From the IMG/VR virus record IMGVR_UViG_3300033075_000428, positions 64,001-128,000 of that record: 64,000 nt of DNA. The stretch is one strand, 5' to 3'. Source of the stretch: a virus. Taxonomy: Duplodnaviria; Caudoviricetes. Shown here in pieces: positions 636-21,459 of the stretch (position 1 is its first letter; each line of letters opens with the position of its first letter). Under the pieces are notes generated by a model that was not told the origin of the DNA, did no database searches, and worked only from the letters and a program-made list of their open reading frames with translations. The position numbers and the translations under genes are program-made.

Positions 636-713
636 TGCTTGTCTCCTACTTGGGTTCAGGGTGATTGCCGACCTAGGAACGAGCTACACACACCTAAGGT
701 TCCAGAAACAAAA

Positions 714-743
714 TAGCCCATCATACACTACAATGATGGGCTA
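714..743 (-). terminator. intrinsic terminator-like hairpin
   Basis: TAGCCCATCAT-N8-ATGATGGGCTA inverted repeat followed by a T-run on the minus strand, just downstream of the 776 ORF. Confidence 0.65.
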
Positions 744-775
744 CTGGCGTGAAACGAGAGGAGGCGATTGACTAA

Positions 776-1177
776 TCAGGTGTGAAGCAACGGATTGATG
801 ATCTCACTTGGTGTATTGGTTGAACTGATGAGAGCATGGTATTGCTTTATGCGATTCTCATTGTAAAAGCTAGAGATGTTCTTCTGAATTGCTTTCAGCG
901 CATCGTGATCAGCTTGAACCTTTGACGCCGACATTCTGCGCAAGTATTTGCCATCAACGTAGATGCGTACGTCGTAGTCGAGACCACGACCAAACTCTGA
1001 AGTCTTTTCCATACTCAATACAAGTGTTGTAGTCCACTTGATTAACTTCTTGTAAAGGGAAGCTGGTATCTCTTTCGTCTTCAAGTACTCTTCATAGTCT
1101 GGGAGCTTCAGTTTGAGCACTGAAATTGGTGGACTCCCAGCTACTGAGACTCTGAACTCAATTGGTTTGGTAGACAC
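776..1177 (-). CDS. hypothetical protein
   Basis: 133-aa ORF abutting the upstream gene's TAA. Confidence 0.6.
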   Translation of the reverse strand: MSTKPIEFRVSVAGSPPISVLKLKLPDYEEYLKTKEIPASLYKKLIKWTTTLVLSMEKTSEFGRGLDYDVRIYVDGKYLRRMSASKVQADHDALKAIQKNISSFYNENRIKQYHALISSTNTPSEIINPLLHT

Positions 1178-1495
1178 TTAGTCTCCTCTTTCCACAAATG
1201 AGTCTTCAATCAGTTTGAGAAGTTCAGTGTAGGCACTGATTTTCTGCTTAACTTCTTTTTGTGCCTTTTGGAGACGTTCAGTATATTCGTCTACCCATTC
1301 TTCAGTAACGTCTTGTTTCAATAGGCGTTCAAAGCCCATTGGCACAATCATTGGTAGTGAACTCACTCCACTACTGTTAAGCTTATTAACTATCTCTCGA
1401 ACAGCAGCCTTCAACATCTTGGCATTTTCGCTCTCTTCACCAACGTGGTCTGTGGACTCACGTATTGACCTGACGATGTTCAGTTCATTTTGCAT
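1178..1495 (-). CDS. putative internal head protein, leader family B (MQNELNIVRSIRES)
   Basis: N-terminal leader shared with 5 neighbouring ORFs; acidic and helical. Confidence 0.55.
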   Translation of the reverse strand: MQNELNIVRSIRESTDHVGEESENAKMLKAAVREIVNKLNSSGVSSLPMIVPMGFERLLKQDVTEEWVDEYTERLQKAQKEVKQKISAYTELLKLIEDSFVERGD

Positions 1496-1510
1496 TGTTT
1501 GTTCAATCTG

Positions 1511-2005
1511 TTAGTACAAGTTATCTTTTGCCAATTCAGGATTAGCAATCACTTTCGTTATCTGCTTCTTGATTGCTGGTAGTTGTCTTTTCATCTCATC
1601 CAAAATGATGTCACGCAATGTATCTTTCAACTTATTGATGAAGTCATCAATGACTGAAAGAGAATCTAGTGTTGAACGACCGAGTGCTCTCAGTGCTTGC
1701 TCAGCAATGTAGTAGATTGAATCATCTACATAGCTAGCTAGTATCCGTTGATACTCGTTACTATTAGCCCTTGAAAAATCTTTTGCGGTGAATAGCTTGT
1801 TGAACTGCTCTAAGAATGCCCCTGTTTCAACTGGGTCTCCAAGTTCATTAGCAGTGTCAATCAAATTGCCAATTACTACGGGCTCAACAATTGGAGTATT
1901 CTTCTTGTTGATGCGAGTGAATTCCTTGACAAACCTTGATGTTAATGACCCGTCTGCCAAAGAAGACTCTCTGATAGCCTTGAGGATGTTCAGTTCATTT
2001 TGCAT
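1511..2005 (-). CDS. putative internal head protein, leader family B (MQNELNILKAIRES); alternative start 2056
   Basis: Leader DNA is identical over 22 nt to that of the 1178 ORF; C-terminus resembles the 2527 ORF (LDEMKRQLP vs LDELEKQLP). Confidence 0.55.
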   Translation of the reverse strand: MQNELNILKAIRESSLADGSLTSRFVKEFTRINKKNTPIVEPVVIGNLIDTANELGDPVETGAFLEQFNKLFTAKDFSRANSNEYQRILASYVDDSIYYIAEQALRALGRSTLDSLSVIDDFINKLKDTLRDIILDEMKRQLPAIKKQITKVIANPELAKDNLY

Positions 2006-2062
2006 TCTTCTATGCTTTCGAGATTTGTTTCCAAATTTAATTTCTTGGCTTACCATAGTTCA

Positions 2063-2527
2063 TTACTCAGCAAAGTTATCAATGTACTCAAGAGAACCCT
2101 TGAGTGCCTTGATGAAAATGCGTCTCACCTTGTTTACCCCGTCTTCATCACCTTGCTCTGGTTTGTATTTGACCAAACCACCAGCAACCATTGTGAACGC
2201 TGTACAGTAGTAGTTGTTGACAGCTTCAGTTGCCCATTGAAATGCTTCCGACTGGACGCTTGACTTAAAACTGTCATCACTGCATTTCAAGATGAAGTCC
2301 TTGAGTTGCTGTTTCCTGTACTCAAAGACTCTTGACATGTCTCCGTTCATCCCCGAAGTGTCCTGAGTCAAGTACATGTCGATGTTACTAAGCTTGACAT
2401 TCTGATTGATGTCGTAGTCAGCAGTCTTCAGTAACATCTCTTGGTCTCTGGGGTCTAATTGTGTGAAAACGAGTCTCTTACCCAGAGACTCGTTTATCCC
2501 ACGAATGATGTTTAGTTCAGAGTCCAT
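2063..2527 (-). CDS. putative internal head protein, leader family B (MDSELNIIRGINES)
   Basis: Shared N-terminal leader. Confidence 0.55.
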   Translation of the reverse strand: MDSELNIIRGINESLGKRLVFTQLDPRDQEMLLKTADYDINQNVKLSNIDMYLTQDTSGMNGDMSRVFEYRKQQLKDFILKCSDDSFKSSVQSEAFQWATEAVNNYYCTAFTMVAGGLVKYKPEQGDEDGVNKVRRIFIKALKGSLEYIDNFAE

Positions 2528-3021
2528 TAGTACTTGATCTGATACTTCCCAGCCAAGACCTTAGGAATTTCACGTTCAAACATTGGAAGTTGTTTTTCAA
2601 GTTCATCAAGGAACAATGATACCATTGCAGGATACAGATTTAAATCCCGTTCAGGTACACCGAAACCAGTCTCCTCACAAGTATATTCTACCCAATCAAA
2701 AATGATATTTTGGCATGCAGAATGCTTGCCGTAAATACTCATTATTGGGCTCGAGATATATGTTTTCAATTCTTTCATCAATCGCTCTACCGTGACTGAC
2801 TCCTCACCTTCTTCTATCGCTATTTCCTCTGCAAGATTGGTGATGATATCATCTGGAATGAGTACTAAATCTCTCTTAAGACGTTGCAGTCTTTCCTGTT
2901 CCGCTGGAGTCAGTTTGAGATTTTGAATTCTGCTTGAAAGTACTGACTCTTGAATAAGAGTCTTGACCACAGTGTCAACGGACATTGTGGACTCAACAAG
3001 ACTTTTGGTATCTTTCTTCAT
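2527..3021 (-). CDS. putative internal head protein, leader family A (KSLVESTMSVDTVVKTLIQES)
   Basis: Start placed at the ATG of MKKDTK; carries the shared leader motif. Confidence 0.55.
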   Translation of the reverse strand: MKKDTKSLVESTMSVDTVVKTLIQESVLSSRIQNLKLTPAEQERLQRLKRDLVLIPDDIITNLAEEIAIEEGEESVTVERLMKELKTYISSPIMSIYGKHSACQNIIFDWVEYTCEETGFGVPERDLNLYPAMVSLFLDELEKQLPMFEREIPKVLAGKYQIKY

Positions 3022-3133
3022 TCCGATTATCCTTATAAAGTGAGAGTTGACTAGTCTATGTCCTAATTTGATTAGGGCATCAAGTACTGTTAACGAATAC
3101 AATAATTCGCAGTACCTAGTTTTGAGAGACAGC

Positions 3134-3649
3134 TTAGTTTACACGAAGCAATGAGTCTGCCTTGCGAAGCAGAGAGTCGACCAATGGGTCTGATTCCATG
3201 TCAGCTGTCTTGAGAACCATACGAGCCTTAGTGACAGCAACGATGAACATTGAGTAGTACGACATTTCAATCATTGGGTCAGACTCCATCATCTCCCAAG
3301 CCTGCAAGATGTTGTACAGTGCTTGTACACCCTTGGTCTTGGAACGAAACAAGTTCGTATAGTCATCTTCTAGTTCAGGACACAAGCGGTTCAATACACT
3401 CAGGCTCATCTCTTGAACCTTCATGCCACGAATCTTCTTGCGTACGTATGTCTGCAGTGTAGTGTTCTCCGCAGCATGCGTTACTAACAGGTACACAACA
3501 GTTCTCAGTTGAGCCGCTGTCTTGATTCCTGTTGGGAATGGCATGTTGGAAGTGCCCTGCATGGACTTAATCTGCTTCAACACATCGGTCATCACTGTTG
3601 TCTTGAACAGCGGTGCAGAGATGATTCTCTTGTCGACTTCAAAGTTCAT
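3134..3649 (-). CDS. hypothetical protein
   Basis: 171-aa ORF with AGGA upstream; phage-typical codon usage. Confidence 0.7.
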   Translation of the reverse strand: MNFEVDKRIISAPLFKTTVMTDVLKQIKSMQGTSNMPFPTGIKTAAQLRTVVYLLVTHAAENTTLQTYVRKKIRGMKVQEMSLSVLNRLCPELEDDYTNLFRSKTKGVQALYNILQAWEMMESDPMIEMSYYSMFIVAVTKARMVLKTADMESDPLVDSLLRKADSLLRVN

Positions 3650-3672
3650 TGTCTCGTCCTGTATTGGGTTTC

Positions 3673-4071
3673 TTAGTATATTGGTTCGATTTCAACTGAA
3701 AGCTTTCGTGTCTTCAAGACTGAATTCAGTTCTTGGTATGAATCATAAAACCGCTGAATGTTGTTAGCAATCTTACCGATTCTCCTTGTGACTTCCTTGT
3801 CAAGCTTCAACTCAAGCTCTTTCACATTCTTTACACCCTTCACCATGCCCTCTTCAAAGAACTTTCGGAGAGCATCAGCGTCCTTAGTATAACCAAGGTC
3901 TTCGATGCAAGAGCAGAATTCTTCCATGTCAAAGTTGCGAGCAAACTTCTCAACCCATTCATCAACCCGAGGAAACTCACCACCAGTGGTGTCGATTGTC
4001 TCCTGAATCTTCTTAGGAGCAGATTTCGATTCTTGCTCTCGCATTGCTTGTAGGATGGATAGTTCCGACAT
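3673..4071 (-). CDS. putative internal head protein, leader family B (MSELSILQAMREQE)
   Basis: Start at ATG 4071 just after the upstream stop; shared leader. Confidence 0.55.
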   Translation of the reverse strand: MSELSILQAMREQESKSAPKKIQETIDTTGGEFPRVDEWVEKFARNFDMEEFCSCIEDLGYTKDADALRKFFEEGMVKGVKNVKELELKLDKEVTRRIGKIANNIQRFYDSYQELNSVLKTRKLSVEIEPIY

Positions 4072-4072
4072 G

Positions 4073-4579
4073 TTAAGCTCCAAACTCCGTTGTTATTTTA
4101 CCCGACTCTTTTGCGTAACGATTGACACAGTACTTCGCAATCACAAGTGCTATCTCTGAAGGCAAGCCAGCGAAGAACGTAGCATGCGCCACGCCTGGAA
4201 CAAACTCTTGAAATCTGTTGGTTCTGTCTAGGTCATGCGACAGTAACTTCTTGACTGGAGCAACTTGAATTCGTGGGTCTTGCTTCAAGTCAGATTGAAG
4301 TATGAAGTAGTAACGATGTCCACCGTCTCGCTTATTGGGGTCACCAGACGTAAGGGAAATCCAAGCTGTGTTCTCAGACTGAGTGTCAAACTCAAGCGCA
4401 ACACCTTGCAATCCAAAGTATTCTGCCTTCAATCCCATTTTCAAGAGCAAGTCATGTATAACACGAGCACTGCTCTTGAATGCCTTGTCTGTAGTGACTG
4501 CTTCTAGCAACGAGCTAACAAACTGCGTCTCAGTCAACGACTCATTCTCAACAAGGTTACGTACTGTTTCGTTACGCAT
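4073..4579 (-). CDS. putative internal head protein, leader family A (VRNLVENESLTETQFVSSLLE)
   Basis: ATG 4579 overlaps the upstream stop; shared leader. Confidence 0.55.
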   Translation of the reverse strand: MRNETVRNLVENESLTETQFVSSLLEAVTTDKAFKSSARVIHDLLLKMGLKAEYFGLQGVALEFDTQSENTAWISLTSGDPNKRDGGHRYYFILQSDLKQDPRIQVAPVKKLLSHDLDRTNRFQEFVPGVAHATFFAGLPSEIALVIAKYCVNRYAKESGKITTEFGA

Positions 4580-5036
4580 GTTGAAGTGCTTCCATTTGTT
4601 CATCGTAAATCTTCTTCACAACAGCATACAAGCTATTGAGTTGTCCGTCTTTCACAGGGAACGTCTGGGTTGGGATTTGAATGTCCTTTACTGTTCCGTT
4701 AAGCTTCACTGTGAACTTGTCCATTGACATCTCACCAGTTTGGCCGTCTGCTATGAACTTCATTGTTATTGTGGCTACAGCACCCGATGGTGTATCGATG
4801 TCCACCAGAATGCTAGAGTGGTAGTCAACAACGTCACCATCATCTATGTTACGGTGAATCAACACAGCAGAGACCTTGTAGTCGTTTTGAATCTTGACAC
4901 GAAGCATGTCAATGATGTCTTGAAACAACTCAGCCTCGTCTGCTGTTAGCTCAGCTTCCCCAAGGAACTGCTTTGTGATGGTCTCTATTGAGAGACCAGT
5001 TTCGAGGAGAGTTCTGATTTGGTTGTTTACTGACAT
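4572..5036 (-). CDS. putative internal head protein, leader family A (IRTLLETGLSIETITKQFLGE)
   Basis: Shared leader followed by an alpha/beta cargo domain. Confidence 0.55.
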   Translation of the reverse strand: MSVNNQIRTLLETGLSIETITKQFLGEAELTADEAELFQDIIDMLRVKIQNDYKVSAVLIHRNIDDGDVVDYHSSILVDIDTPSGAVATITMKFIADGQTGEMSMDKFTVKLNGTVKDIQIPTQTFPVKDGQLNSLYAVVKKIYDEQMEALQHA

Positions 5037-5070
5037 AGTCTTGAGTCAATCCGTTGAGTGATTATTGGTT

Positions 5071-5700
5071 TCAGTCGACTTGAATGTAACCAAACCGAGT
5101 ATTCAAGAGCAAGGTTACATCATAGTTTGGTGAGTTTGCCCAGATGGTGTTGCCTTGTTGCTTGAACCCAAGATGGTCTAGGACACCAGTCCAAGTTTTA
5201 TAGTCAGCGTCTGATACGTCGAGCTTGTTACCTTGGAGCAAAGTTACTTCATGTTCAGTAGCAAGCAAGAAGTCTTGAATGAACTTGTTAGCATCACCTG
5301 GAGTTTGCTCAGTCTCAGAGAGTTCATCGGTTGATTCTTTGAATGCTGTCTTCTCAAACTTCTGAAGAAGTTTTATCGCATCGTTAGCAGACTCACCGAG
5401 TTGTACCATTCCCTTTAGATAGGAGTATGCTACACTGAAGGTATTAGGTTGTATAAACCCAGAGCAGATTTGGGAGAGTACCCTACCCAATTCATAGAAA
5501 TCGTGGTAGTTTTGGGATTCATACGAATCCATCGCGAGGAAAAACGTCCGTAAATTCGTCTGAAGCTCCTTTAGTTTTTCACTATCGATTTCTTCTGATA
5601 ACTCTGGTTTCTGATTAGACTCTTTCAATCTACTGTTCTTTGACAATAGCTCTTCATCTTGAAGTCTACGCATCTCAGCTAGGATTGCTCTCTCGGACAT
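5071..5700 (-). CDS. putative internal head protein, leader family B (MSERAILAEMRR); paralog of 5727
   Basis: VQLGESAN...FKES matches VELGEEAN...FAES in the 5727 ORF. Confidence 0.55.
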   Translation of the reverse strand: MSERAILAEMRRLQDEELLSKNSRLKESNQKPELSEEIDSEKLKELQTNLRTFFLAMDSYESQNYHDFYELGRVLSQICSGFIQPNTFSVAYSYLKGMVQLGESANDAIKLLQKFEKTAFKESTDELSETEQTPGDANKFIQDFLLATEHEVTLLQGNKLDVSDADYKTWTGVLDHLGFKQQGNTIWANSPNYDVTLLLNTRFGYIQVD

Positions 5701-5726
5701 GGTGTATTTCCTTGGGTTAGATTACT

Positions 5727-6158
5727 TTAGTCGCAGTCTTCATCAATACCCGAGCCAGCAAAGAGGTTGTCTTCGTTCAAATCATCTTCGTCAGAGTTAC
5801 TCGACTCAGCGAAAGTGTCTGGCAACTGCTCAGTTGCAGTGAGCACTTTATTAGCTTCCTCTCCAAGCTCAACAAGTGACTCTAGTAACTCAGTCAACTG
5901 GTCTTTCGATTCTTGTGTATAAGCACGTTTGGTAACGTCTGAGTAGACCAATGCGAGATACTCTTGAAGGTTCTCAAATAGATGAGGCTCCCTACCGATT
6001 GCTACGGTGAGCTTCTGTGAAGCAGTCTTAAACCACTCAATAGCATGCTTATCAGCATCGCTCTCTGTGATTTGAATTGACTCTTTCAGCGAGTTAGTCT
6101 TCTGAGCTTCTTCAGCTTCGTTGCGACGCATTGCTGCAAGGATTGCTAGTTCTGACAT
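5727..6158 (-). CDS. putative internal head protein, leader family B (MSELAILAAMRR)
   Basis: Shared leader, acidic tail. Confidence 0.55.
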   Translation of the reverse strand: MSELAILAAMRRNEAEEAQKTNSLKESIQITESDADKHAIEWFKTASQKLTVAIGREPHLFENLQEYLALVYSDVTKRAYTQESKDQLTELLESLVELGEEANKVLTATEQLPDTFAESSNSDEDDLNEDNLFAGSGIDEDCD

Positions 6159-6175
6159 GTTGTTTCTCTTGTTAG

Positions 6176-6523
6176 TTATTCGTCGTAAAATCCAACTGCA
6201 TTTCTGAGCTCTTTAACGAATGGTGAAGTCTTCTTTAAGAACTCTTTTAGACGCTCTAATGCAGTTAGAACCGCAATACCGTCTTTACGGTCAACCAGAT
6301 TTGGATCATCTATATCGTCATCAATTAGCTTTGTAAGTGAGTCAGAAAGCTTGGTCAACATGTCCTGTGGCATCTTTTCTCTCAGCTGAGCTCCTAAATG
6401 GAGAAGCTTATCCTTTCGATTCGCCCCGACAAGCATTGCTGTTCGACCGTTATAGTCAATCTCATTGAGGTTATTCTCATCCAACTCTAACGAAACCGTG
6501 GTATTTCCTGCAGTGATTGGCAT
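6176..6523 (-). CDS. hypothetical protein (head-protein cluster)
   Basis: AAGGAG upstream; 115 aa. Confidence 0.65.
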   Translation of the reverse strand: MPITAGNTTVSLELDENNLNEIDYNGRTAMLVGANRKDKLLHLGAQLREKMPQDMLTKLSDSLTKLIDDDIDDPNLVDRKDGIAVLTALERLKEFLKKTSPFVKELRNAVGFYDE

Positions 6524-6538
6524 TTACTTCTCCTTGGG

Positions 6539-7453
6539 TTAATGTGCGTCAGCAGTTTCTGCTTCAGCTGCATCGTGGTCAGCCTTCTTGTAATGGTGCC
6601 AAATCACTTCAACTGCCCACCAACCAGCACTCAGTGCTGTGGTGATGAGCGTGATGGCTCCACCGAACAAGACGAACTCAACGATACCAATTGCGATACA
6701 CACGGAGTTAATCACAACCTTGTGCTTCTCGTACCAGTCAACCATTCCCTTTAGCTTCGGATTGCTCTGAACTGTCTTGAGCTTCGAAATCAATCCAGCC
6801 AAGAATGGAATAGAAGGTGCAATCTTTAGTACCATTTCAAGGATGTCAACAGCAAAGTGCGTCCAGTGAATGGCACCCAACACAGCACCAATTGCTCCAC
6901 CTTCTTCAAGTGTGATTGGGAACTCAACTGGTTCATTGGTTTCATTGATTCGCTCTTGCTCGTCAACAACCCAAGAACGGTAGTCTTCCAAGAAGGAAGT
7001 GCGCTCGTCAGCTGTTACACGAATTGAGCGTTCCAACATGACGTCGGAGAGAATATGTCGTACTGGTTCGTGTGCCTCGAGCACCTTCTTCTCGCTCATG
7101 ATGGTCATGGCGGATTCAATCAGCCCATCTGCGTCTGACTTCGTTGCTCCCCACTTGAACCCAGGAACGAACTTCTGAGTGAGGTGTTTTTCCAATGGGG
7201 CGAAGACTTTGTCCTTGACCCAGTCAGCAATCTTGTCGACCTTGTCGGAAATGAAGGACTTGACCTTATCACCGATGTCTTTTACTTTGGCTAATCCCTT
7301 TTGAACAAGGTCTTTCAAACCTTCGTCAACAGCAGTTTCGTGTGTTTCATTCACACGTGCATTTGCGATTTTCAGTGCTTGTCTCACAACTGCTGCTTCG
7401 TTGAGCGTATTGTCGCGAAGCAACTCGTGAATTGTAGCAGTGTCTAGAGTCAT
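6539..7453 (-). CDS. putative internal/ejection protein with C-terminal hydrophobic helices
   Basis: Family-A-like leader (IHELLRDNTLNEAAVVRQAL), many [LIV]xE sites, 2-3 hydrophobic segments. Confidence 0.5.
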   Translation of the reverse strand: MTLDTATIHELLRDNTLNEAAVVRQALKIANARVNETHETAVDEGLKDLVQKGLAKVKDIGDKVKSFISDKVDKIADWVKDKVFAPLEKHLTQKFVPGFKWGATKSDADGLIESAMTIMSEKKVLEAHEPVRHILSDVMLERSIRVTADERTSFLEDYRSWVVDEQERINETNEPVEFPITLEEGGAIGAVLGAIHWTHFAVDILEMVLKIAPSIPFLAGLISKLKTVQSNPKLKGMVDWYEKHKVVINSVCIAIGIVEFVLFGGAITLITTALSAGWWAVEVIWHHYKKADHDAAEAETADAH

Positions 7454-7536
7454 GGCAGCTTGGGTATAATATGGAAATTGCTTACAGCCTTACTGGTATT
7501 AAGACTGTAAGCAATAGAGCTTTGACGTGTTGTTGG

Positions 7537-8133
7537 TTACAGTACTCCACTAGCAAACATGGCAACTGACCAACGGTCTTCAAGGTTAGTCGTTGGGTAG
7601 TCTGCTTGGAATTGATCACACTGTTGTCGTGTGAGCTCGAACTTACCTTCTGTGCGATTGACCAAACCAACAATCTCAATGAACTCCTCAAGTGACATAT
7701 TCCCCTTCTTGGTTGTAACTGTACCCAAGTGTTCACATGTGAACAGTAGGTCAGCACCTTCGTTGTTGGTAACGTCGAAGACCTGAATCATTCCCAAGAT
7801 TGGGTGTCCTGTTTGAATGAAGGGACATTGGAAGTCTATCGACCAGCAAACTTCAGGTGCTTCAGGAAACAGGGAGATGGTTGGAGCGATGGTGGTGCAA
7901 CCAACAGTTTCCAATGCTCTACCAACTTGTACTAGCTTGTACGTCTCAATTGCATTGATGTCTTCTTGAGACAAGCTGATGCTGAACTTCCGTGCTGGCT
8001 TGTAAAACTCTTGAGTGTCTGCTGGCTTCTGAGTGAAGTCAAAAGACTTGGTGCTATACGTTTCACTCGTAAGCATCTCAACTATCTGATTGGCAGAAGC
8101 GTTGGACACTAGGTATTGGTGGATGTTGTTCAT
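7537..8133 (-). CDS. putative internal head protein, leader family A (IHQYLVSNASANQIVEMLTSE)
   Basis: Shared leader. Confidence 0.55.
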   Translation of the reverse strand: MNNIHQYLVSNASANQIVEMLTSETYSTKSFDFTQKPADTQEFYKPARKFSISLSQEDINAIETYKLVQVGRALETVGCTTIAPTISLFPEAPEVCWSIDFQCPFIQTGHPILGMIQVFDVTNNEGADLLFTCEHLGTVTTKKGNMSLEEFIEIVGLVNRTEGKFELTRQQCDQFQADYPTTNLEDRWSVAMFASGVL

Positions 8134-8175
8134 TGTTGTTCTGAAAACTTATCTGCCATGTGTAGAAAAAGTAAC

Positions 8176-8204
8176 GAAGCCGTTTCACTTGCTGAGACGG
8201 CTTC
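8176..8204 (-). terminator. terminator-like hairpin
   Basis: GAAGCCGTTTCA-N5-TGAGACGGCTTC, with a T-run shortly downstream on the minus strand. Confidence 0.55.
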
Positions 8205-8211
8205 AGCTTTA

Positions 8212-8646
8212 TTACAGCAACTTCTCTACGATGCTCTGCTCAGTCAGTGCTTCTGACTTAATCATGCTGTGGATGTCAGACGCTGACTCTTTGTAGAGAC
8301 TACCAAGTTTATGTCTTACTCTGCTCGCAATGTCAGATGGGTCACCAGCTGGATTGCGATTGATGTAGGTAAGAACTTCAAAGTACATATCATGAGTGTC
8401 GAATTCACCAGTACTGATCAGCTTCTTCAATTTTGCTGTGAATCGAGTCACTGCTTCTTCAGCAACTTCCTCTTCGTCATGCTCGTTACCAGTTCTGACC
8501 TTCTTTGGGGCAGTGCTGTCAAGAACTTCTTCCCACTCATATGGGTCTTCATCCCCAAGACGAGATTTGGGTAGTGACTTCAGCTCATGACGAATCGTGT
8601 CATGCTCATCAGCGTAGCGATATTCGCCTTCTTGAATGCTAGACAT
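8212..8646 (-). CDS. acidic protein with the family-A motif at its C-terminus (IHSMIKSEALTEQSIVEKLL)
   Basis: Same motif as the neighbouring leaders, placed at the extreme C-terminus. Confidence 0.55.
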   Translation of the reverse strand: MSSIQEGEYRYADEHDTIRHELKSLPKSRLGDEDPYEWEEVLDSTAPKKVRTGNEHDEEEVAEEAVTRFTAKLKKLISTGEFDTHDMYFEVLTYINRNPAGDPSDIASRVRHKLGSLYKESASDIHSMIKSEALTEQSIVEKLL

Positions 8647-8830
8647 GTTGAAGTTTCTCCGATTGATTCTTGGCTTGTTGTCTCATTCTTGTTAACTCAC
8701 GAAGCACACCAACCTTAGTCAACTCTGTGTACTCATTGGTGACGGCTTGACCAGAAGCTATTGCTGAGGATACTCTGATACTCTCTTGTTCAGAGAGTGG
8801 TTTGGATTCAGTGTTGATTGGGTGGTTCAT
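8639..8830 (-). CDS. small hypothetical protein
   Basis: ATG 8830 (MNHPINTE...) fills the gap between genes; ends in TAG overlapping the next start. Confidence 0.5.
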   Translation of the reverse strand: MNHPINTESKPLSEQESIRVSSAIASGQAVTNEYTELTKVGVLRELTRMRQQAKNQSEKLQHV

Positions 8831-8855
8831 TTGCAGTAAGCTAGGTGCAATGTTA

Positions 8856-9857
8856 TCACCAGCGTTCAAGACTCTCGATATCAGAATACTCTTTCTTAAG
8901 CTCAGAAAGAAATTTAGACATCGTGAACTCTTTTGTAGAATCAATGTAAAGAGTGCCTGGTTCATCGTCCTCATTGCTGAAAACGTTTTTCTTCCCGTTG
9001 TCGTCTGTTCCTGTTATCTTAGTCACAACTTCAACGCTCGACTCATCACCTACCGCAAAGTAGAAACTGAGTTTGATACTATTAGCTTTCCCTGTAGTAG
9101 CATTTGGAGAATCCATTACTACGACTAATGCAGGTGATAGTGCGCCAGCAGAGCGTGCTTTCTTGACAGAAGTCACAGTGAACTCATTCCCCTTGATACT
9201 TTTACAGAGTTGTGTGAACACATTTTTGAAGTCTGCTTCTGAATTCTCTAGCCAGAGTTTTTCGAATCCAACTGTGTCTTGAGGAGTAACTTTGGTCTTC
9301 ACTAGATACTTGCGGAGTTGCTTACCTTTGCTCTTTAGAGCAGATAAGAATGCTTGGTCTTTCTTTGCCAAACTGAAGAAGTATTCAAGGCTCTCAGGTG
9401 AGTTAGCGCGTTCTTCACTGAAGAACTTATAGACTTCTGGGTCTTTGAATTTTTTGAATTCAAGCCAAGTAGACGCTCCATCAAGACCGCTTTTTTCAAC
9501 ACGATTTTTATCTAAAATTCCAGGAAATGCGATTATCTGAACTATATAGATGGGATTTTTGGATCTTGAACTATAATATAGTTCGATTGTGGCATGGATT
9601 GATATTTTTACCAACTTACCAGTAGGTACAACGGGAGTTAAAAGGTATTGATTAGCACCATTGTAATCGGGAGTGTATTTTTCAATAGTAACACTCCCAG
9701 CGGGTAATACTGAGATTAATTCGTCTATTATCCAAGCATCGACATTTTCAGTTTTAGTAAGCTTAAACTCCTTATTGCGATACTCTTCAATCAGAATCTG
9801 CTCTATGATAGATTTCTCATCAAGAGATGAGTTGATAAGTTTGTGTATTGACTTCAT
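8856..9857 (-). CDS. putative internal head protein, leader family A (IHKLINSSLDEKSIIEQILIEE)
   Basis: AGGAG SD; shared leader; mosaic base composition. Confidence 0.55.
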   Translation of the reverse strand: MKSIHKLINSSLDEKSIIEQILIEEYRNKEFKLTKTENVDAWIIDELISVLPAGSVTIEKYTPDYNGANQYLLTPVVPTGKLVKISIHATIELYYSSRSKNPIYIVQIIAFPGILDKNRVEKSGLDGASTWLEFKKFKDPEVYKFFSEERANSPESLEYFFSLAKKDQAFLSALKSKGKQLRKYLVKTKVTPQDTVGFEKLWLENSEADFKNVFTQLCKSIKGNEFTVTSVKKARSAGALSPALVVVMDSPNATTGKANSIKLSFYFAVGDESSVEVVTKITGTDDNGKKNVFSNEDDEPGTLYIDSTKEFTMSKFLSELKKEYSDIESLERW

Positions 9858-9882
9858 GGGAATTCTCCTGGTTACTGATTGT

Positions 9883-10722
9883 CTATATAACTGCTAGGAA
9901 TGATGCGTCTGGAACCACTGCGCTGGTTGAACCAGCGTCTTCAGCAATGTTAATGTAGTAGTATCCACTCTTCGCTTTCCCAGACTTCAAGAAGCGTAAG
10001 ATTGTACCATTGGCTCTTGCGTCGTCCATTGGGCTACTGAGTGTGTTCGACATCTGTCCAATGATTCTCACTTGGAATACAATAGGCTTGCAGTTGAACG
10101 GAACAATGCTATTGTCAGAATATGTAGCACGTTCGTCTCTGTCTGTTGGGTAGTAGTCTTCCTCTGGACAACGACAGTTGAATCCTGTCTGACGGTATCG
10201 AAGTCTCGGGTCGGTGTCAAAACTCTTCTGTCCTGCGAGTAGTGTCTTACCATACTCACGAGTGCCATCCCAAGAACCCTCTGCGGGAATACCAATTCGT
10301 GCTTCAAGTGCTTCAGTAGCTGCTTTGAATGTACCTACGTGGATTCCACGGGTACCCTTTAGGTTCTTGTCTGTGCTCCCGTGCCAGAAGATGGGTGCTG
10401 AGGACTCTAGTAGTTTCAAGCACACGTCATTGACTGACAACTCAGTAGACTCAATGAGCTCACGAACATGTTCACTGTGTTCAACATGCTCATGAGTCTT
10501 CTTTATCACATTACCAGACTTGAAGAGTTTGCTGGGGTCTTGACCAAGAGTGATGCTACCTTCTCGGAACTTGTCAAACCCATCCTTCTTCGCTACTTGT
10601 TTCACAGCTTTGACACGGGCTTGCCACTGTACTGAGGTTTCCTCTTCACGTTGTGACGCTAACAGTTCTTCCTGCCATTCTTCATTACCCTTACGAGTCC
10701 CCCACAAGACACCCTGTTTCAT
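9883..10722 (-). CDS. head-cluster protein with an internal family-A motif and a possible ADP-ribosyltransferase-like domain
   Basis: VRELIESTELSVNDVCLKLLES followed by FWHGS...GIHVGT. Confidence 0.4.
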   Translation of the reverse strand: MKQGVLWGTRKGNEEWQEELLASQREEETSVQWQARVKAVKQVAKKDGFDKFREGSITLGQDPSKLFKSGNVIKKTHEHVEHSEHVRELIESTELSVNDVCLKLLESSAPIFWHGSTDKNLKGTRGIHVGTFKAATEALEARIGIPAEGSWDGTREYGKTLLAGQKSFDTDPRLRYRQTGFNCRCPEEDYYPTDRDERATYSDNSIVPFNCKPIVFQVRIIGQMSNTLSSPMDDARANGTILRFLKSGKAKSGYYYINIAEDAGSTSAVVPDASFLAVI

Positions 10723-10724
10723 GC

Positions 10725-11441
10725 TTAGTCCTTGAACGTAACATCAACAGGCAAATCAGTAAAAATCTCTTGGGCGAAATCAATGCAGTCTGAATACACT
10801 TCGCTACGCTGGTCGTCTGGCATTGAAAGGGCAGACGTCAGGTCTTCCAAGATTGCATTCGACAAGTCACGCATTTCTTCAAGAAGCGTGATGTCCTCTT
10901 CAAGCAGGGCATGTGTGTCGCGCTCTTGGACGTGAAGTTCGATGATGAAGTGCGTTAGGCCTGAGCTCACCGCTTTCATGAGCTCTAACACGTCTTCTCG
11001 GGTCACGAACGCTGTTGACTCGTTTGTTTCCGCTGGAGTGGAAAGAGTCTTCTGAAAATGCTTGGACTTCCCAGAACGCCAGAACTTCTTGAGTGCTCGC
11101 TTGTACTTTTCCTTGTAGCGAGTCCAACGACGCTTCGCAATTCTGCTGAGTGCTGAGTTTGGCCTACGGTGATTCTTATGACGCACAACGGAAGCTTCTT
11201 CCAATTCCTCAACGAGTGAGAGTACCAAGGCTGACTCTTCTTGAGTCAAAGATTCTTCAATCAGTGCAGAGTTTACACGTGACAGTACTTTCGGTAAGAA
11301 ATCTTCTTTGCACGAGGACTCTAGGACAACGAGTTTCTCATACAATGAGAGTGTTTCATCAAAGCTCAACGGCTCAATACCTTTGAACTTTGGAAGTGTC
11401 TTGACGAAAGAAAGTGTCTCAGTCAGTGACAGTTGTTGCAT
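10725..11441 (-). CDS. putative prohead core/scaffold protein
   Basis: Directly downstream of the portal (the position of T4 gp67/gp68); Arg/Lys-rich central segment flanked by LxE-rich acidic helices. Confidence 0.45.
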   Translation of the reverse strand: MQQLSLTETLSFVKTLPKFKGIEPLSFDETLSLYEKLVVLESSCKEDFLPKVLSRVNSALIEESLTQEESALVLSLVEELEEASVVRHKNHRRPNSALSRIAKRRWTRYKEKYKRALKKFWRSGKSKHFQKTLSTPAETNESTAFVTREDVLELMKAVSSGLTHFIIELHVQERDTHALLEEDITLLEEMRDLSNAILEDLTSALSMPDDQRSEVYSDCIDFAQEIFTDLPVDVTFKD

Positions 11442-11450
11442 TTCGTTACC

Positions 11451-13241
11451 TTAGTTTCCTGAAGTGATTGGAGTTTGGTCTGCTTCGGGGTCTTCACGAA
11501 GTGTAATCAACTCTTCAAGAGTGAATTGACCTTCGGTCAGAATGTTCTTCTGTGTGAGTCTACGTTGAATGTCGTTGTTGAAGTTCTGCAATGAACCTTC
11601 ACCAAGACGGAACCTGAGCCTATCAATCTGACTCTTCAGCTCATTGTTCTCTGACAATACCTTGTCAACAGTGCGTTCAATTTCCAAGACGTTGAGTGGA
11701 TTGACTGGCTGATTGGAAGCGAACAATGAATCCACTGAACCTTCTTTTGCCTTCTCTCCGTCGCCTTCACCACCTTCGTCACCTGTCTCACCTTCTGCTG
11801 AGGCTTCGTCTTCCTTCTTAGGATACAACTCATCCAGCTGAAGATTTGGTAGACGCATGTACGTCTTGATGAGGTAGCGATACAGGTACTCTTTGTCCAC
11901 TGTCTCAACACCATCGGTAACAGCAGTAACTATTGACTGGCAAACAGCTACTACTGCACTCAATGCGTCTGCTCTGTCCAACTCACCGTTAGTTGAAACA
12001 GGGGTGAGGGACACCTTGAACTTCGAAGGGTCAACGTCGAGACCATGCAAATAGAGCTCAATCTGGCACATGATTGTTAGGCCAACAATCAAGTCCTTTT
12101 GAATGGAAGCTACCTTGCGTGCATACCGTGGGTCAAGTGCAATCAGTGAATTGTACGAGAGAGCACTGTCTCCGTCGAATGACAGATATTGCTTTGGAAT
12201 ACCCAATGTTCCAAAGCGTTGTGAATTCAAGAACTCGATGTCAACGATCGACGAAACGTCAACGTCTCCACCAAAGGTGCTGATTTCACTACGTCCCTTG
12301 TTCGACGAACCATACACTGGAATGATGATTTCGTCTGCATATGACATTGGGTTCCGTTCACTGGACAAATACTCTTGTGTGTAGTTCACACCAGACTGCT
12401 TCGTGAACAGCTTCTTGTAGTTCTTGATGATGTTCTTCTGCTCACGAGTGTCACTTCCTTGGCCAACATCCACATAGTGAACACGGTAGAAAATAGACTT
12501 CGCTAAACGTGCTAACACCAATGAGTCTTCAGCAAGTGAGATTTTCTTCTCAATTTGACGAGACTTGATGAATGCTGGAGAGCCATACTTTGGGTTGATG
12601 TCGATGTCATACTTCTGCCAGAAAGCGTCTGGCATTCTGTCTTCCACAATTGGGTAACGTACGCTTCGGAAGTGTACGTAGTCAAATGGCTTGAGGGAAA
12701 CGAATTCACGTCCAGTGGTCATGGAGTTGTGAGTGATTGGACTCACTTCCAAGAATCCAACCAGCTTCCCGTTCTTCTCCAGACGACACACTTGTTCTGG
12801 TCGAATGGAATCATTGACATGGGAGATGCCACTACCTGAAGTCACAATACGGGTGAACTTGTCACCATACTTAGCGAGTTCACGTGCCCAAGACCAGATA
12901 CTTTCTTCAAGTCCAAGACGGTCAATCATGTTGCGTAAGACACGCTCTTTCTTTGGGTCTTCCGACGTCACGCTAATGATTTGATTCGCCGTGATGTCCA
13001 TTTGCGTAGCGTCGTCAGCCAACATGTCCAATGCACGTGACATCATCGACTCGTCCATCAAGTCCATGTCTCGGTACACTTCACTTCGCTTGTAGGTAGT
13101 ACCAGTGAATTGATTGTAGAACTCAATCAACTGGGACTTGTTTACTTCTGGTGAGTAGACTTCTCCACCTGACACTGGCTTCCTTGGTGCAAGGTTACCA
13201 GTACCACCAAACAGAGACTTCAGACCATCGAACATTGCCAT
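11451..13241 (-). CDS. portal protein (T4 gp20-like)
   Basis: Y..MD...ALD.LADDAT, W.WARELAKYGD, VHFR, YG, EDSLVLARLA..RV.YVDVG motifs; 596 aa. Confidence 0.9.
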   Translation of the reverse strand: MAMFDGLKSLFGGTGNLAPRKPVSGGEVYSPEVNKSQLIEFYNQFTGTTYKRSEVYRDMDLMDESMMSRALDMLADDATQMDITANQIISVTSEDPKKERVLRNMIDRLGLEESIWSWARELAKYGDKFTRIVTSGSGISHVNDSIRPEQVCRLEKNGKLVGFLEVSPITHNSMTTGREFVSLKPFDYVHFRSVRYPIVEDRMPDAFWQKYDIDINPKYGSPAFIKSRQIEKKISLAEDSLVLARLAKSIFYRVHYVDVGQGSDTREQKNIIKNYKKLFTKQSGVNYTQEYLSSERNPMSYADEIIIPVYGSSNKGRSEISTFGGDVDVSSIVDIEFLNSQRFGTLGIPKQYLSFDGDSALSYNSLIALDPRYARKVASIQKDLIVGLTIMCQIELYLHGLDVDPSKFKVSLTPVSTNGELDRADALSAVVAVCQSIVTAVTDGVETVDKEYLYRYLIKTYMRLPNLQLDELYPKKEDEASAEGETGDEGGEGDGEKAKEGSVDSLFASNQPVNPLNVLEIERTVDKVLSENNELKSQIDRLRFRLGEGSLQNFNNDIQRRLTQKNILTEGQFTLEELITLREDPEADQTPITSGN

Positions 13242-13246
13242 AAGAG

Positions 13247-13753
13247 TTAGGCTTCCGTCAAGGTTACGTCTTCAATACACACACCAATAAGCGGTGCAAT
13301 GATTTCAGCTGGGATGTCTGCGTCGATGATTTTCGACTCAGGAATCATCTTGAACTCAATCTTGTGCTTCTCATTGTAAGCGGTATCACGGAAGAGATTG
13401 TAAGCATCAAGGTCTTCCTGTGCGCTGATGCGCATTACGATTTCCTTGTGCCACTTGGTCTCATCCTTGTACTCTTCAGTGATGTCTTCAGCAGAGTTGA
13501 CTTCAAAGTAGTTGTTTGGGTCATCCACGTTAGCTTCATACCCTACACGTCGCAAGTACTTTGCTGGTTCACCTGCTTCATTCTTATCGCACAAGCGCAT
13601 GAATTCTTGACGAATCGCTTCATGCTCCTCTTTGAGAATCTTCTCAATCAAGCGAAGGTTCACACTGATGTGATAGGCACATGGGAGTGATGTCTTCGAC
13701 ATTGCAAGAAGCAACTGTTGAGTTATTTCTAGTTCAGAAAGTGTTAGTTCCAT
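13247..13753 (-). CDS. hypothetical protein, possible tail-fibre assembly chaperone
   Basis: LP..AY.I..NL pattern; located downstream of the fibre genes. Confidence 0.4.
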   Translation of the reverse strand: MELTLSELEITQQLLLAMSKTSLPCAYHISVNLRLIEKILKEEHEAIRQEFMRLCDKNEAGEPAKYLRRVGYEANVDDPNNYFEVNSAEDITEEYKDETKWHKEIVMRISAQEDLDAYNLFRDTAYNEKHKIEFKMIPESKIIDADIPAEIIAPLIGVCIEDVTLTEA

Positions 13754-20273: not shown

Positions 20274-21380
20274 TTAACGATTGTTAAGCACCACATCGAT
20301 GATGTAGGGAATCATGTCCTTGACAGCTACTGACTTCTTGCGTAGTGTTCTCGTGAGGAGGGAAACGAGTTCTGTTCCAATTCCTGGGACTGAGGCTGTG
20401 CTGAGCTTCTCTTTCGTGAGTGGGTCAATCATATCACGAATATTGGACGTTGCTGTCTCTATGCCCTGTCTGTCAACTTCACCTGTGCGTGGGTCTTTCA
20501 GTGTTTTGAGCAATACTCTTTTGAAGTACTCAAGATCAGGATTGAATGTCTCTATGATGTTCTCTTCATAGTCTGAGATTGTATCTTTCTTGTAAACTCC
20601 AAAGTATCTACTCTTGTTCTCTTCTGAGTTCAAGAACACGTCTAGTATATCTTGTTTTGGTACACCAATCAATAGGAGAACAAGAATAGCCTTATCATAT
20701 GGGTATGAACCTGTGTGGACTGGGAATTGAACAGTTCTCTGTGGCTGAGGCAATTCAGAAGTTTGATCCTTGCTCAAGAAGTCTTCAAGAGTTTCCTCAG
20801 TGACTTGTGTTCCTTTGGTGCCTGACTTGAAATCATTGCGTGAAGCAAATGAGTATACTGGGATGTTATTGTCAAGACAAGTTTGAACTACATTCCTTAG
20901 CATATCATTATTCTCTAGTGAGCTTTTGCCACGAGACGAAAGGATGTCTAACCGAATGATGTACTTCAGTGCATTCTTGATGATTGGTTTCGAGGAGAAG
21001 AAGCGTTCTTCGGTTTCATCATATTTGTTTCTAAACCAAGAGCTAGAATCAACGTGATAATCGAACGGCTCTCTACGGACTTCTTGATTGAGCCTGTCTG
21101 CATCAAGAGTGAATACAACTGGGAAGTTCGTGCCGAAGCTTATCCCCCTCGTTCGTGCAGTCGACAAGTAGTAGTACTTGTTCTTTGGAATGTCCTTCCG
21201 AATCTCCGTGCCTGTCATCAACGCTAAGCGGAACTGATTCTTGGTGACAATCTGCTCAGCTACGTCAAGGTGTGTGAAGTGATAGACTGTTCCCAGATTA
21301 CTACCTTCAATCAGGTCAGTGACAATGAGTGACACATCATCCTGCTTCGTTAGTTTCTGATGAAGGTTCTCTGGGTTCAT
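20274..21380 (-). CDS. family-A-leader protein with a possible ART-like domain
   Basis: LHQKLTKQDDVSLIVTDLIEG followed by VYHFT...YLSTAR...E.EER; start placed at MNPENL. Confidence 0.45.
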   Translation of the reverse strand: MNPENLHQKLTKQDDVSLIVTDLIEGSNLGTVYHFTHLDVAEQIVTKNQFRLALMTGTEIRKDIPKNKYYYLSTARTRGISFGTNFPVVFTLDADRLNQEVRREPFDYHVDSSSWFRNKYDETEERFFSSKPIIKNALKYIIRLDILSSRGKSSLENNDMLRNVVQTCLDNNIPVYSFASRNDFKSGTKGTQVTEETLEDFLSKDQTSELPQPQRTVQFPVHTGSYPYDKAILVLLLIGVPKQDILDVFLNSEENKSRYFGVYKKDTISDYEENIIETFNPDLEYFKRVLLKTLKDPRTGEVDRQGIETATSNIRDMIDPLTKEKLSTASVPGIGTELVSLLTRTLRKKSVAVKDMIPYIIDVVLNNR

Positions 21381-21459
21381 TTGCTTGAGCTTCTGATGAG
21401 AATGGTAGGTTCTCATAAAACGCATAGAGTGTTACTATCATCACACGCACTATCTAGAA

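What the first reader, a model, noticed from the sequence alone, without database searches (positions are those of the whole stretch)
1178..11441. Portal-adjacent array of ~15 genes built from two shared leader peptides on unrelated cargo domains (candidate capsid-targeting and protein-injection system)
Family A, roughly [IV][HR]xL...[IV][VIT]xxL[LI]xE, is N-terminal in 2527, 4073, 4572, 6539, 7537 and 8856, internal in 9883, C-terminal in 8212, and also present in the distant 20274 gene. Family B, M(x)[SN]E[LR]xI[LVI]xx[IM][RN], starts 1178, 1511, 2063, 3673, 5071 and 5727. The leaders mostly end in hydrophobic-x-Glu (IRE|S, LLE, LIE|G). The downstream domains are mostly dissimilar. Established: T4 internal proteins share a short capsid-targeting sequence that gp21 removes after [IL]xE, and they are injected with the DNA (IPI* is an anti-restriction protein). 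Inference: a much larger, two-address modular version that delivers a variable payload of anti-defence or takeover proteins.
Basis: partly seen in the sequence, partly recalled or inferred. Interest (0 to 1): 0.82.

Follow-up and report, generated by a model that had tools for sequence, protein, structure and literature searches.

The report
Shared capsid-loading leaders on phage proteins
An uncultured 190-kb T4-type phage puts one of two short shared leader peptides, each ending in the cutting motif of its head protease, on about 19 otherwise unrelated proteins, most likely to load them into the capsid as T4 does with its internal proteins; the principle is known, but these leaders and their replacement between related phages have not been described.

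Summary
Family A (about 22 residues, two short helices) is on 12 proteins of the genome and family B (about 13 residues) on 7. Fourteen of them lie in the 17-gene array downstream of the portal gene. Both motifs stand far above background, are conserved as peptide rather than as DNA, and mostly end in hydrophobic-x-Glu.

The phage has a T4-type portal, a gp23-type capsid protein and an S77 (gp21-type) prohead protease.

The strongest evidence is comparative. Three family A cargoes have homologues elsewhere that carry a different, mostly short T4-CTS-like leader. Similarity always starts at the same hydrophobic-x-Glu junction. A related 179-kb phage has neither A nor B but has its own leader on at least 26 genes. 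A third relative has family A on other small proteins.

Two cargo families have ADP-ribosyltransferase-like folds, which recalls T4 Alt.

Best reading (about 0.7): these are capsid-targeting propeptides removed by the head protease, a variant of the T4 internal-protein system. Packaging, cleavage and injection are all inferred. Separate roles for A and B, an anti-defence payload, and the 10725 ORF as scaffold are not supported.

This scan noted similar shared leaders in other uncultured T4-like phages, and this same stretch in another window.

The parts
11451..13241 (-). Portal gene (596 aa), T4 gp20 type. The array begins directly downstream of it.
   Evidence: PF07230 E 7.5e-27; phrog_213
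10725..11441 (-). 238-aa gene next to the portal with no A or B leader. It is conserved beside the portal in relatives. Function unknown; not shown to be a scaffold.
   Evidence: No family. Orthologue in G001 is 45% identical over 76 aa. Similar genes follow the portal in L102 and L103.
9883..10722 (-). 279-aa protein made of an 85-aa N-terminal part, an internal family A leader (residues 86-106, DNA 10405-10467) and an ADP-ribosyltransferase-like cargo (residues 109-279).
   Evidence: 296 homologues at 50-68% identity, mostly 185-200 aa with short T4-like leaders. AF2 cargo pLDDT above 90. VIA-align Z 5.0-5.8 to RES, ParT, MbcT, PARP and diphtheria toxin.
8856..9857 (-). 333-aa protein with an N-terminal family A leader (residues 1-24, DNA 9786-9857). 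Cargo unknown.
   Evidence: No family. ESM Atlas gave nothing usable.
8212..8646 (-). 144-aa protein with a family A motif at its C-terminus (residues 125-144, DNA 8215-8274).
   Evidence: Leave-one-out score 13.1 bits. A C-terminal copy also occurs in relative L102.
7537..8133 (-). 198-aa protein with a weak N-terminal family A leader (residues 1-24, DNA 8062-8133).
   Evidence: In the seed profile; not recovered by leave-one-out.
6539..7453 (-). 304-aa protein with a weak family A leader (residues 1-30, DNA 7364-7453) and hydrophobic C-terminal helices. It is conserved near the portal in relatives.
   Evidence: Fails leave-one-out. The G001 orthologue is 42% identical, aligns from residue 31 against its residue 10, and has a 9-residue T4-like leader instead.
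6176..6523 (-). 115-aa array gene without an A or B leader.
5727..6158 (-). 143-aa acidic protein with a family B leader (residues 1-12, DNA 6123-6158). Paralogue of 5071.
5071..5700 (-). 209-aa protein with a family B leader (residues 1-12, DNA 5665-5700). It has no relative in the protein database.
   Evidence: Only itself among 5.8 billion proteins.
4572..5036 (-). 154-aa protein with a family A leader (residues 1-27, DNA 4956-5036).
4073..4603 (-). Protein with a family A leader counted from Met9 (residues 9-34, DNA 4502-4579).
3673..4083 (-). Protein with a family B leader counted from Met5 (DNA 4036-4071).
3134..3649 (-). 171-aa array gene without an A or B leader.
2527..3102 (-). Protein with a family A leader counted from Met28 (DNA 2947-3021), 164 aa from that Met. 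It shares a 23-residue C-terminal stretch with the B protein 1511.
2063..2527 (-). 154-aa protein with a family B leader (residues 1-13, DNA 2489-2527).
1511..2056 (-). Protein with a family B leader counted from Met18 (DNA 1967-2005), 164 aa from that Met.
1178..1495 (-). 105-aa protein with a family B leader (residues 1-13, DNA 1457-1495).
776..1177 (-). Last gene of the array (133 aa, no leader). A terminator-like hairpin follows at 745-712.
20274..21425 (-). Distant family A gene (leader counted from Met16, DNA 21306-21380). Paralogue of genome 28746-29810. The cargo belongs to a family with a Tpt1/DarT-like ADP-ribosyltransferase fold.

Best explanation
Families A and B are capsid-targeting propeptides.

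1. Each leader forms a short amphipathic helix (B) or a helix-turn-helix (A).
2. During head assembly the leader binds the scaffolding core of the prohead, so the attached protein is built into the head.
3. The phage's S77 (T4 gp21-type) prohead protease then cuts after the hydrophobic-x-Glu at the end of the leader and frees the mature protein inside the capsid.
4. The mature protein probably leaves the capsid with the DNA at infection.

The portal-adjacent array is therefore a cassette of internal head proteins. It is the counterpart of T4 IPI, IPII, IPIII and Alt, but larger and with leaders of different sequence.

Shown here: the motifs, their position, their terminal motif, the protease gene, and the exchange of leaders at a fixed junction on conserved cargoes. 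Inferred: binding to the core, cleavage, presence in the virion, and ejection.
For: 1. The head genes are T4-type: portal PF07230, capsid protein PF07068 E 7.6e-50, and protease PF03420 E 2.6e-25. His85 and Ser140 of T4 gp21 are conserved. The aligned N-terminal site reads M-L-E|S in T4, I-R-E|S here and I-L-E|S in G001.

2. T4 gp21 cuts after L/I-x-E. T4 internal proteins carry 10-19-residue targeting propeptides, and a C-terminal propeptide is known for Alt (PMC9026906).

3. The cargo of genome 28746 has 242 relatives. Of 57 aligned homologues that have an N-terminal leader, 51 have hydrophobic-x-Glu plus one residue directly before the conserved K-Q-V-G. That Glu is at least 90% conserved. 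The leaders differ and are mostly 6-24 residues; several are close to T4's own, which I read from the T4 record.

4. The cargo of window gene 9883 gives the same picture. In 50 of 56 homologues a hydrophobic-x-Glu ends 4-10 residues before the conserved F-Y-H-G-S, against 69 of 1120 control positions.

5. Relative G001 (capsid protein 66% identical, portal 45%) has no A or B. It has its own leader on at least 26 genes, 18 of them with unrelated cargo, again ending in hydrophobic-x-Glu then Ser. Its copy of the 28746 cargo is fused to that leader at exactly the same Glu.

6. Family A heads other small proteins in relative L102, and the G001-type leader sits right after the portal in L103.

7. 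In both AF2 models the leader is a low-confidence helical hairpin, joined by a low-confidence linker to a confidently folded cargo.

8. Two cargo families are ADP-ribosyltransferase-like, as is the packaged T4 Alt.
Against: - There is no virion proteome, no mapped N-terminus and no cultured host, so every functional step is inferred.
- Four of 12 A copies and 2 of 7 B copies lack a clean hydrophobic-x-Glu at the expected place.
- Family A is longer (24-31 residues) than the T4 sequence and shows no similarity to any T4 head protein; the best score is 5.5 bits, to gp68.
- One A copy is internal and one is C-terminal, which a plain N-terminal propeptide model does not predict.
- Most cargoes are acidic, whereas I recall T4's internal proteins as basic (the T4 part is from my own knowledge).
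- Only 9 of 20 large viral records that carry the 9883-type cargo show an S77 protease. The same domain also ends roughly 1000-residue proteins that have no such leader. So the link between this junction and this protease family is not universal.
Confidence: 0.7

Rival explanations
1. The leaders are docking tags that stay on the mature protein. They bind a common partner, such as a chaperone, another virion part or a hub protein. They are not removed, and they may not direct the protein into the capsid.
For: - Family A is a conserved two-helix unit, much more than a protease site needs.
- It works in internal and C-terminal positions in two phages.
- Several copies lack a clean cleavage motif.
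Against: - On three conserved cargoes the same place is occupied in other phages by short leaders that resemble the proven T4 targeting sequence.
- The Glu at the junction is at least 90% conserved while the rest of the leader is free to vary.
- The genes sit with the head genes.
Confidence: 0.15
2. The array is one family of tandem paralogues whose C-terminal parts diverged beyond recognition. The conserved N-terminus is what is left of common descent, not a portable address.
For: - The genes are in tandem.
- Three or four pairs keep residual similarity beyond the leader.
- The one small cargo searched widely (5071) has no relative at all, and none of them matches a family.
Against:
- Genes 2527 and 1511 look like paralogues but carry different leaders.
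- G001 shows the same pattern with another leader.
Confidence: 0.08
3. The leaders are recognition sequences for a modifying enzyme, as in RiPP-like systems.
For: A shared short leader on unrelated proteins is also the signature of such systems (note e1-127136).
Against: - The genome has no radical SAM gene, while the same search matched all 14 control genomes.
- No enzyme gene lies in the array.
- The junction matches the rule of the head protease.
Confidence: 0.03

Closest known systems
[quoted passage not shown]
   Same: A short shared N-terminal leader on dissimilar proteins that ends in hydrophobic-x-Glu, in a phage with a gp21-type protease, gp20-type portal and gp23-type capsid protein. 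A published review already suggests that the targeting sequence lets T4-like phages pack varied proteins (PMC9026906). Family B has about the same length as the T4 sequence.
   Different: No sequence similarity to the T4 leader. Family A is 24-31 residues with two helices. There are two leader families in one genome and 19 genes rather than 3-4. Fourteen of them form one array beside the portal. The cargoes are mostly acidic. One copy is internal and one is C-terminal.
Phage T4 Alt, a packaged ADP-ribosyltransferase cut by gp21 at both ends
   Same: At least two leader-bearing cargo families have ADP-ribosyltransferase-like folds. Alt's C-terminal propeptide is a precedent for the C-terminal family A copies.
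   Different: No sequence relation to Alt was found or tested. One fold resembles Tpt1/DarT and the other RES/ParT/PARP. Activity and target are unknown.
Head proteins of giant phages SPN3US, PhiKZ and 201phi2-1, processed by a gp21-like protease
   Same: Many head and ejection proteins lose N-terminal propeptides by cleavage after Glu (PMC10052503).
   Different: In the passages I read, those propeptides are 20-254 residues long and no shared leader sequence is reported. Here the leader itself is the conserved element.
Leader family of the related 179-kb phage G001 (IMG/VR), and the shared leaders noted earlier in this scan in other uncultured T4-like phages
   Same: One leader on at least 26 genes with mostly unrelated cargo, ending in hydrophobic-x-Glu then Ser. 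One cargo is shared with this phage and joined at the same Glu.
   Different: The leader sequence is entirely different. The genes are scattered over 27-153 kb instead of forming one array. G001 has one leader family rather than two.
Polyvalent proteins of phages and conjugative elements (Iyer, Aravind and colleagues 2017; from my own knowledge, not read here)
   Same: The cargo domain of window gene 9883 also ends roughly 1000-residue multi-domain proteins in other viral contigs. One homologue carries the Pfam ART-PolyVal domain.
   Different: Here the domain stands alone behind a leader instead of being one module of a giant protein.

Membership tests
T4-type capsid-targeted internal proteins (CTS plus gp21 processing) | The phage encodes a gp21-type (S77) prohead protease with catalytic His and Ser | tested here: met
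   PF03420 at 91 bits and E 2.6e-25. His85 and Ser140 in T4 numbering are conserved.
T4-type capsid-targeted internal proteins (CTS plus gp21 processing) | A short N-terminal leader shared by proteins that are otherwise unrelated | tested here: met
   Family B is 12-13 residues on 7 genes. Family A is 24-31 residues, N-terminal in 10 of 12 genes.
T4-type capsid-targeted internal proteins (CTS plus gp21 processing) | The leader ends in the L/I-x-E cleavage motif | tested here: met
   Present in 8 of 12 A copies and 5 of 7 B copies. The Glu is at least 90% conserved among 61 homologues of one cargo.
T4-type capsid-targeted internal proteins (CTS plus gp21 processing) | Sequence similarity of the leader to the T4 CTS | tested here: not met
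   The family A profile finds nothing in the T4 genome and scores at most 5.5 bits on T4 head proteins. B was compared with the T4 leader by eye only.
T4-type capsid-targeted internal proteins (CTS plus gp21 processing) | The leader is positionally equivalent to T4-like leaders on homologous cargo | tested here: met
   Three cargoes show it.
T4-type capsid-targeted internal proteins (CTS plus gp21 processing) | The protein is present in the capsid, the leader is removed, and the protein is ejected with the DNA | not testable with these tools
   The phage is uncultured and no proteome is available.
ADP-ribosyltransferase superfamily (cargo of genome 28746 and window 20274) | ART fold and conserved catalytic-type residues | tested here: inconclusive
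   Foldseek probability 0.99-1.0 to Tpt1 and DarT, but E only 2.6e-3 to 7.5e-3. Tox-ART-HYD1 scores 31.6 bits (cut-off 25) on homologue P0147, though no single stretch passes on its own. H40 and E110 are invariant. The query itself has no Pfam hit.
ADP-ribosyltransferase superfamily (cargo of window 9883) | ART fold | tested here: inconclusive
   Most of the top matches covering residues 109-279 are ART-fold proteins, but Z is only 5.0-5.8. Foldseek gave E above 0.4. H114 is invariant, E261 nearly so.

The most novel reading that the evidence does not exclude
In this phage clade the capsid address is a fast-evolving, replaceable module that co-evolves with its receptor in the prohead core. At least four leader types occur on the same or similar cargo positions: A, B, the G001 type and a T4-like type. 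In this genome A and B would be two separate addresses that sort cargo to different places, amounts or release times in the capsid. The address would also work from internal and C-terminal positions.
Probability: 0.2. Interest if true: 0.75.

Novelty: new variant of a known kind. Interest (0 to 1): 0.55.

Why it matters
The T4 capsid-targeting sequence is the only proven way a tailed phage loads arbitrary proteins into its head, and how the core recognises it is still unclear.

This clade offers natural swap experiments. The same cargo sits behind unrelated leaders in related phages, joined at one conserved Glu, and two leader families coexist in one genome. That makes the recognition question testable by pairing each leader with its own and with a foreign core or protease. 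It could also supply independent tags for packing proteins into engineered phage heads.

It also suggests that large sets of injected proteins, some of them NAD-using enzymes, are common in uncultured T4-type phages.

Tried and rejected
I could therefore not fetch the contigs of the closest portal relatives (80% and 74% identity).
- The portal as a single query found nothing in viral contigs.
- Neither conserved cargo has a relative among 50,697 GenBank phage records, so no cultured phage with a virion proteome could be linked.
- PDB sequence searches gave nothing for either cargo.
- ESM Atlas was busy once and then gave nothing usable for the 8856 protein.
- Family B member 5071 has no relative among 5.8 billion proteins, so B has no comparative support of its own.
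- The family A alignment was too variable for a collection scan.
- A DNA pattern for M-K-E-L-I-E-S gave 103 stretches. Only one carries the full motif, and it comes from the same phage as L102.
- I suspected that T4 gp22, gp67 and gp68 carry a family-A-like N-terminus. The profile does not support it.
- I suspected that B resembles the protease's own N-terminus. Only the last four residues agree, and the profile hit on the protease lies elsewhere.
- In G001 the protease N-terminus is the third best non-member hit of the G001 leader profile, but at 7.1 bits this is marginal.
- Promoter and terminator scans show no enrichment over shuffled sequence.
- Rejected: a DNA-level repeat and a radical SAM tag.

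Full report
WHAT IS THERE

The window is bases 64001-128000 of a complete 190,353-bp phage record with terminal repeats. On the minus strand, a T4 gp20-type portal gene at 11451-13241 (PF07230) is followed by 17 small genes that run down to 776. A terminator-like hairpin closes the run at 745-712. None of these 17 proteins matches a Pfam or PHROGs family.

Elsewhere the genome has a gp23-type major capsid gene (genome 3962-5380, PF07068, E 7.6e-50). Next to it lies an S77 prohead protease fused to a long C-terminal extension (genome 5423-7045, 540 aa). The His and Ser that align with His85 and Ser140 of T4 gp21 are conserved. That these two are the catalytic residues is from my own knowledge.

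THE OBSERVATION

Family A:
- A profile of 12 copies separates them from every other gene, at 19-25 bits against 4.
- Nine of the 12 are recovered when left out of the profile. The copies in genes 6539, 7537 and 20274 are not.
- A six-frame search of the genome finds these 12 and nothing else.
- Three copies lie outside the window, near the capsid and protease genes or further on.
- With the nearest in-frame Met as start, ten copies begin at residue 4-8. The copy in gene 9883 is internal and the copy in gene 8212 is C-terminal.

Family B:
- It has 7 copies, six of them in the window. It is the largest cluster in an unbiased comparison of all N-termini.
- Five of the seven pass leave-one-out clearly.

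Both families:
- Both are conserved as peptide. Codons differ and the upstream DNA is not alike.
- A hydrophobic-x-Glu ends the motif in 8 of 12 A copies and 5 of 7 B copies.
- The cargo parts are mostly unrelated. One exception is informative: genes 2527 (A) and 1511 (B) are both 164 residues from their Met and share a 23-residue C-terminal stretch (E 4e-5). They look like paralogues that carry different leaders.

WHAT IT IS: THE COMPARATIVE EVIDENCE

1. The cargo of genome 28746 (paralogue of window 20274)
- It has 242 relatives among 1.84 billion representative proteins.
- Almost all of them align from query residue 25-31, the end of leader A, to their own residue 3-10.
- These relatives begin with other leaders, mostly 6-24 residues long.
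- In 51 of 57 the leader ends in hydrophobic-x-Glu plus one small residue, directly before a conserved K-Q-V-G.
- The Glu is at least 90% conserved in a 61-sequence alignment.

2. The cargo of window gene 9883
- It has 296 relatives at 50-68% identity. Most are 185-200 residues and have leaders of 13-33 residues.
- In 50 of 56 a hydrophobic-x-Glu ends 4-10 residues before the conserved F-Y-H-G-S. The figure for control positions is 69 of 1120.
- In this phage the distance is 5.
- Many of these foreign leaders look like T4's own. I read from the T4 record that IPII and IPIII begin M-K-T-Y-Q-E-F-I-A-E.

3. The 6539 protein
- Its G001 orthologue is 42% identical.
- Similarity runs from residue 31 here to residue 10 there, behind a 9-residue T4-like leader.

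4. The relatives
- G001 is a complete 179.5-kb phage with a capsid protein 66% identical, portal 45% and protease 38%.
- G001 has neither A nor B. At least 26 of its genes start with another leader, a basic helix followed by G-[IV]-K-E-S. Eighteen of those cargoes are unrelated to one another.
- G001's copy of the 28746 cargo is joined to that leader at the very same Glu.
- Contig L102 (portal 48%) carries family A on five other small ORFs, one of them at the C-terminus. These are the top five hits of a profile built from G000 alone.
- Contig L103 (portal 44%) has two genes with the G001-type leader directly after the portal-adjacent gene, which is where the array sits here.

HOW IT MOST LIKELY WORKS

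T4 gp21 cuts after L/I-x-E. T4's internal proteins carry 10-19-residue propeptides that target them to the prohead core and are then removed. Alt also has a C-terminal propeptide (PMC9026906).

By position, terminal motif and genomic company, A and B are the counterparts of that targeting sequence. The leader binds the core, the protein is enclosed, the S77 protease cuts after the Glu, and the mature protein stays in the head and probably enters the cell with the DNA.

The AF2 models fit this. In both, leader A forms two short helices of low confidence, joined by a low-confidence linker at the predicted cut to a well-folded cargo.

All functional steps are inferred.

THE CARGOES

- The 28746/20274 family folds like Tpt1/KptA and DarT (Foldseek probability 0.99-1.0, but E only about 1e-3 to 1e-2). 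Its homologues touch the Pfam model Tox-ART-HYD1.
- The 9883 cargo gives mostly ADP-ribosyltransferase-fold proteins among its best matches over residues 109-279: RES, ParT, MbcT, PARP and diphtheria toxin. Z is only 5.0-5.8.
- Both are therefore probably NAD-using enzymes, in the manner of T4 Alt, but this is not settled.
- The other cargoes are small and mostly acidic, and none matches a known family. The one searched more widely, 5071, has no relative at all.

WHAT SPEAKS AGAINST, AND LIMITS

- Several copies lack a clean cut site.
- Family A is longer than any T4 targeting sequence and unrelated to it.
- The internal and C-terminal copies need an extra assumption. The C-terminal placement does recur in L102 and, for the other leader type, in L103.
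- Only 9 of 20 large viral records with the 9883-type cargo show an S77 protease.
- That cargo domain also ends roughly 1000-residue proteins without such a leader.
- Family B has no comparative support of its own.
- Nothing shows that A and B do different jobs.
- The 10725 protein is conserved beside the portal, but nothing marks it as a scaffold.

RIVALS

- Retained docking tags: 0.15.
- Remnants of a diverged paralogue family: 0.08.
- Recognition tags for a modifying enzyme: 0.03. The genome has no radical SAM gene.

NOVELTY

The principle is known from T4, and a published review already suggests that it lets T4-like phages pack varied proteins. Earlier notes of this scan describe similar shared leaders in other uncultured T4-like phages, and this same stretch was noted in another window.

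I did not find the following described in the papers I searched and read:
- the two-helix family A leader;
- two leader families in one genome;
- the portal-adjacent array;
- above all, the documented replacement of leaders at a fixed Glu on conserved cargo between related phages.

I class it as a new variant of a known kind, with moderate interest.

Noticed in passing
G001 (loci L011-L019), genes between about 27 and 153 kb, all on the minus strand: The related 179.5-kb phage has at least 26 genes, and two more with the motif further in, that start with one shared leader: a basic helix followed by G-[IV]-K-E-S. Eighteen of the cargoes are unrelated. Six form one paralogue group of 347-471 aa.
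   Followed up: partly
window 9883-10398 and L003:8746-9810 (genome 28746-29810): Two leader-bearing cargo families look like ADP-ribosyltransferase folds. One resembles RES/ParT/PARP and the other Tpt1/DarT. Neither has a relative in 50,697 GenBank phage records, but both have hundreds in metagenomes.
   Followed up: partly
window 6539-7453: This leader-bearing protein has two or three hydrophobic helices near its C-terminus and is conserved close to the portal in G001 and L103. It could be a membrane-active ejection protein.
   Followed up: no
window 8134-8211, hairpin at 8176-8204: A 12-bp-stem inverted repeat fills the 78-base gap between the gene with the C-terminal A motif (8212) and the next A-leader gene (7537).
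   Followed up: no
window 712-745, minus strand: A terminator-like hairpin (13 pairs, then a T-rich tail) lies right after the last array gene and probably marks the end of the transcription unit.
   Followed up: no
L002:5423-7045 (genome): The S77 protease is the N-terminal third of a 540-aa protein. The long C-terminal part is helical and may be the scaffold. It gives a very weak match to T4 gp22 (E 0.49). The called start may be too far upstream.
   Followed up: no
L002:3962-5380, residues about 147-238, and genome genes 151731, 152698 and 170956: A roughly 90-residue stretch of the major capsid protein is 34-47% identical to parts of three other proteins of the genome. G001 has the same pattern. 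It may be a shared insertion or decoration domain.
   Followed up: no
window 15908-18832: The 974-aa tail-fibre-like protein repeats a unit ending in S-Y-T-I-T-L-P about five times.
   Followed up: no
window 13247-13753: The gene just upstream of the portal begins M-E-L-T-L-S-E-L-E-I-T-Q. This resembles the extended start of B gene 3673 (M-E-L-N-M-S-E-L-S-I-L-Q). It may be a degenerate eighth B copy, or chance.
   Followed up: no
proteins P0098, P0087, P0124, P0043 and P0034 (homologues of the 9883 cargo): In some phages this cargo is the last module of a 290-450-aa protein. The linker before it again contains hydrophobic-x-Glu, as if the protein were cut into modules by the head protease.
   Followed up: no
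L103:3727-5082, C-terminal end: The L103 homologue of the 6539 protein ends in a copy of the G001-type leader. This is a second case of a leader at a C-terminus.
   Followed up: no
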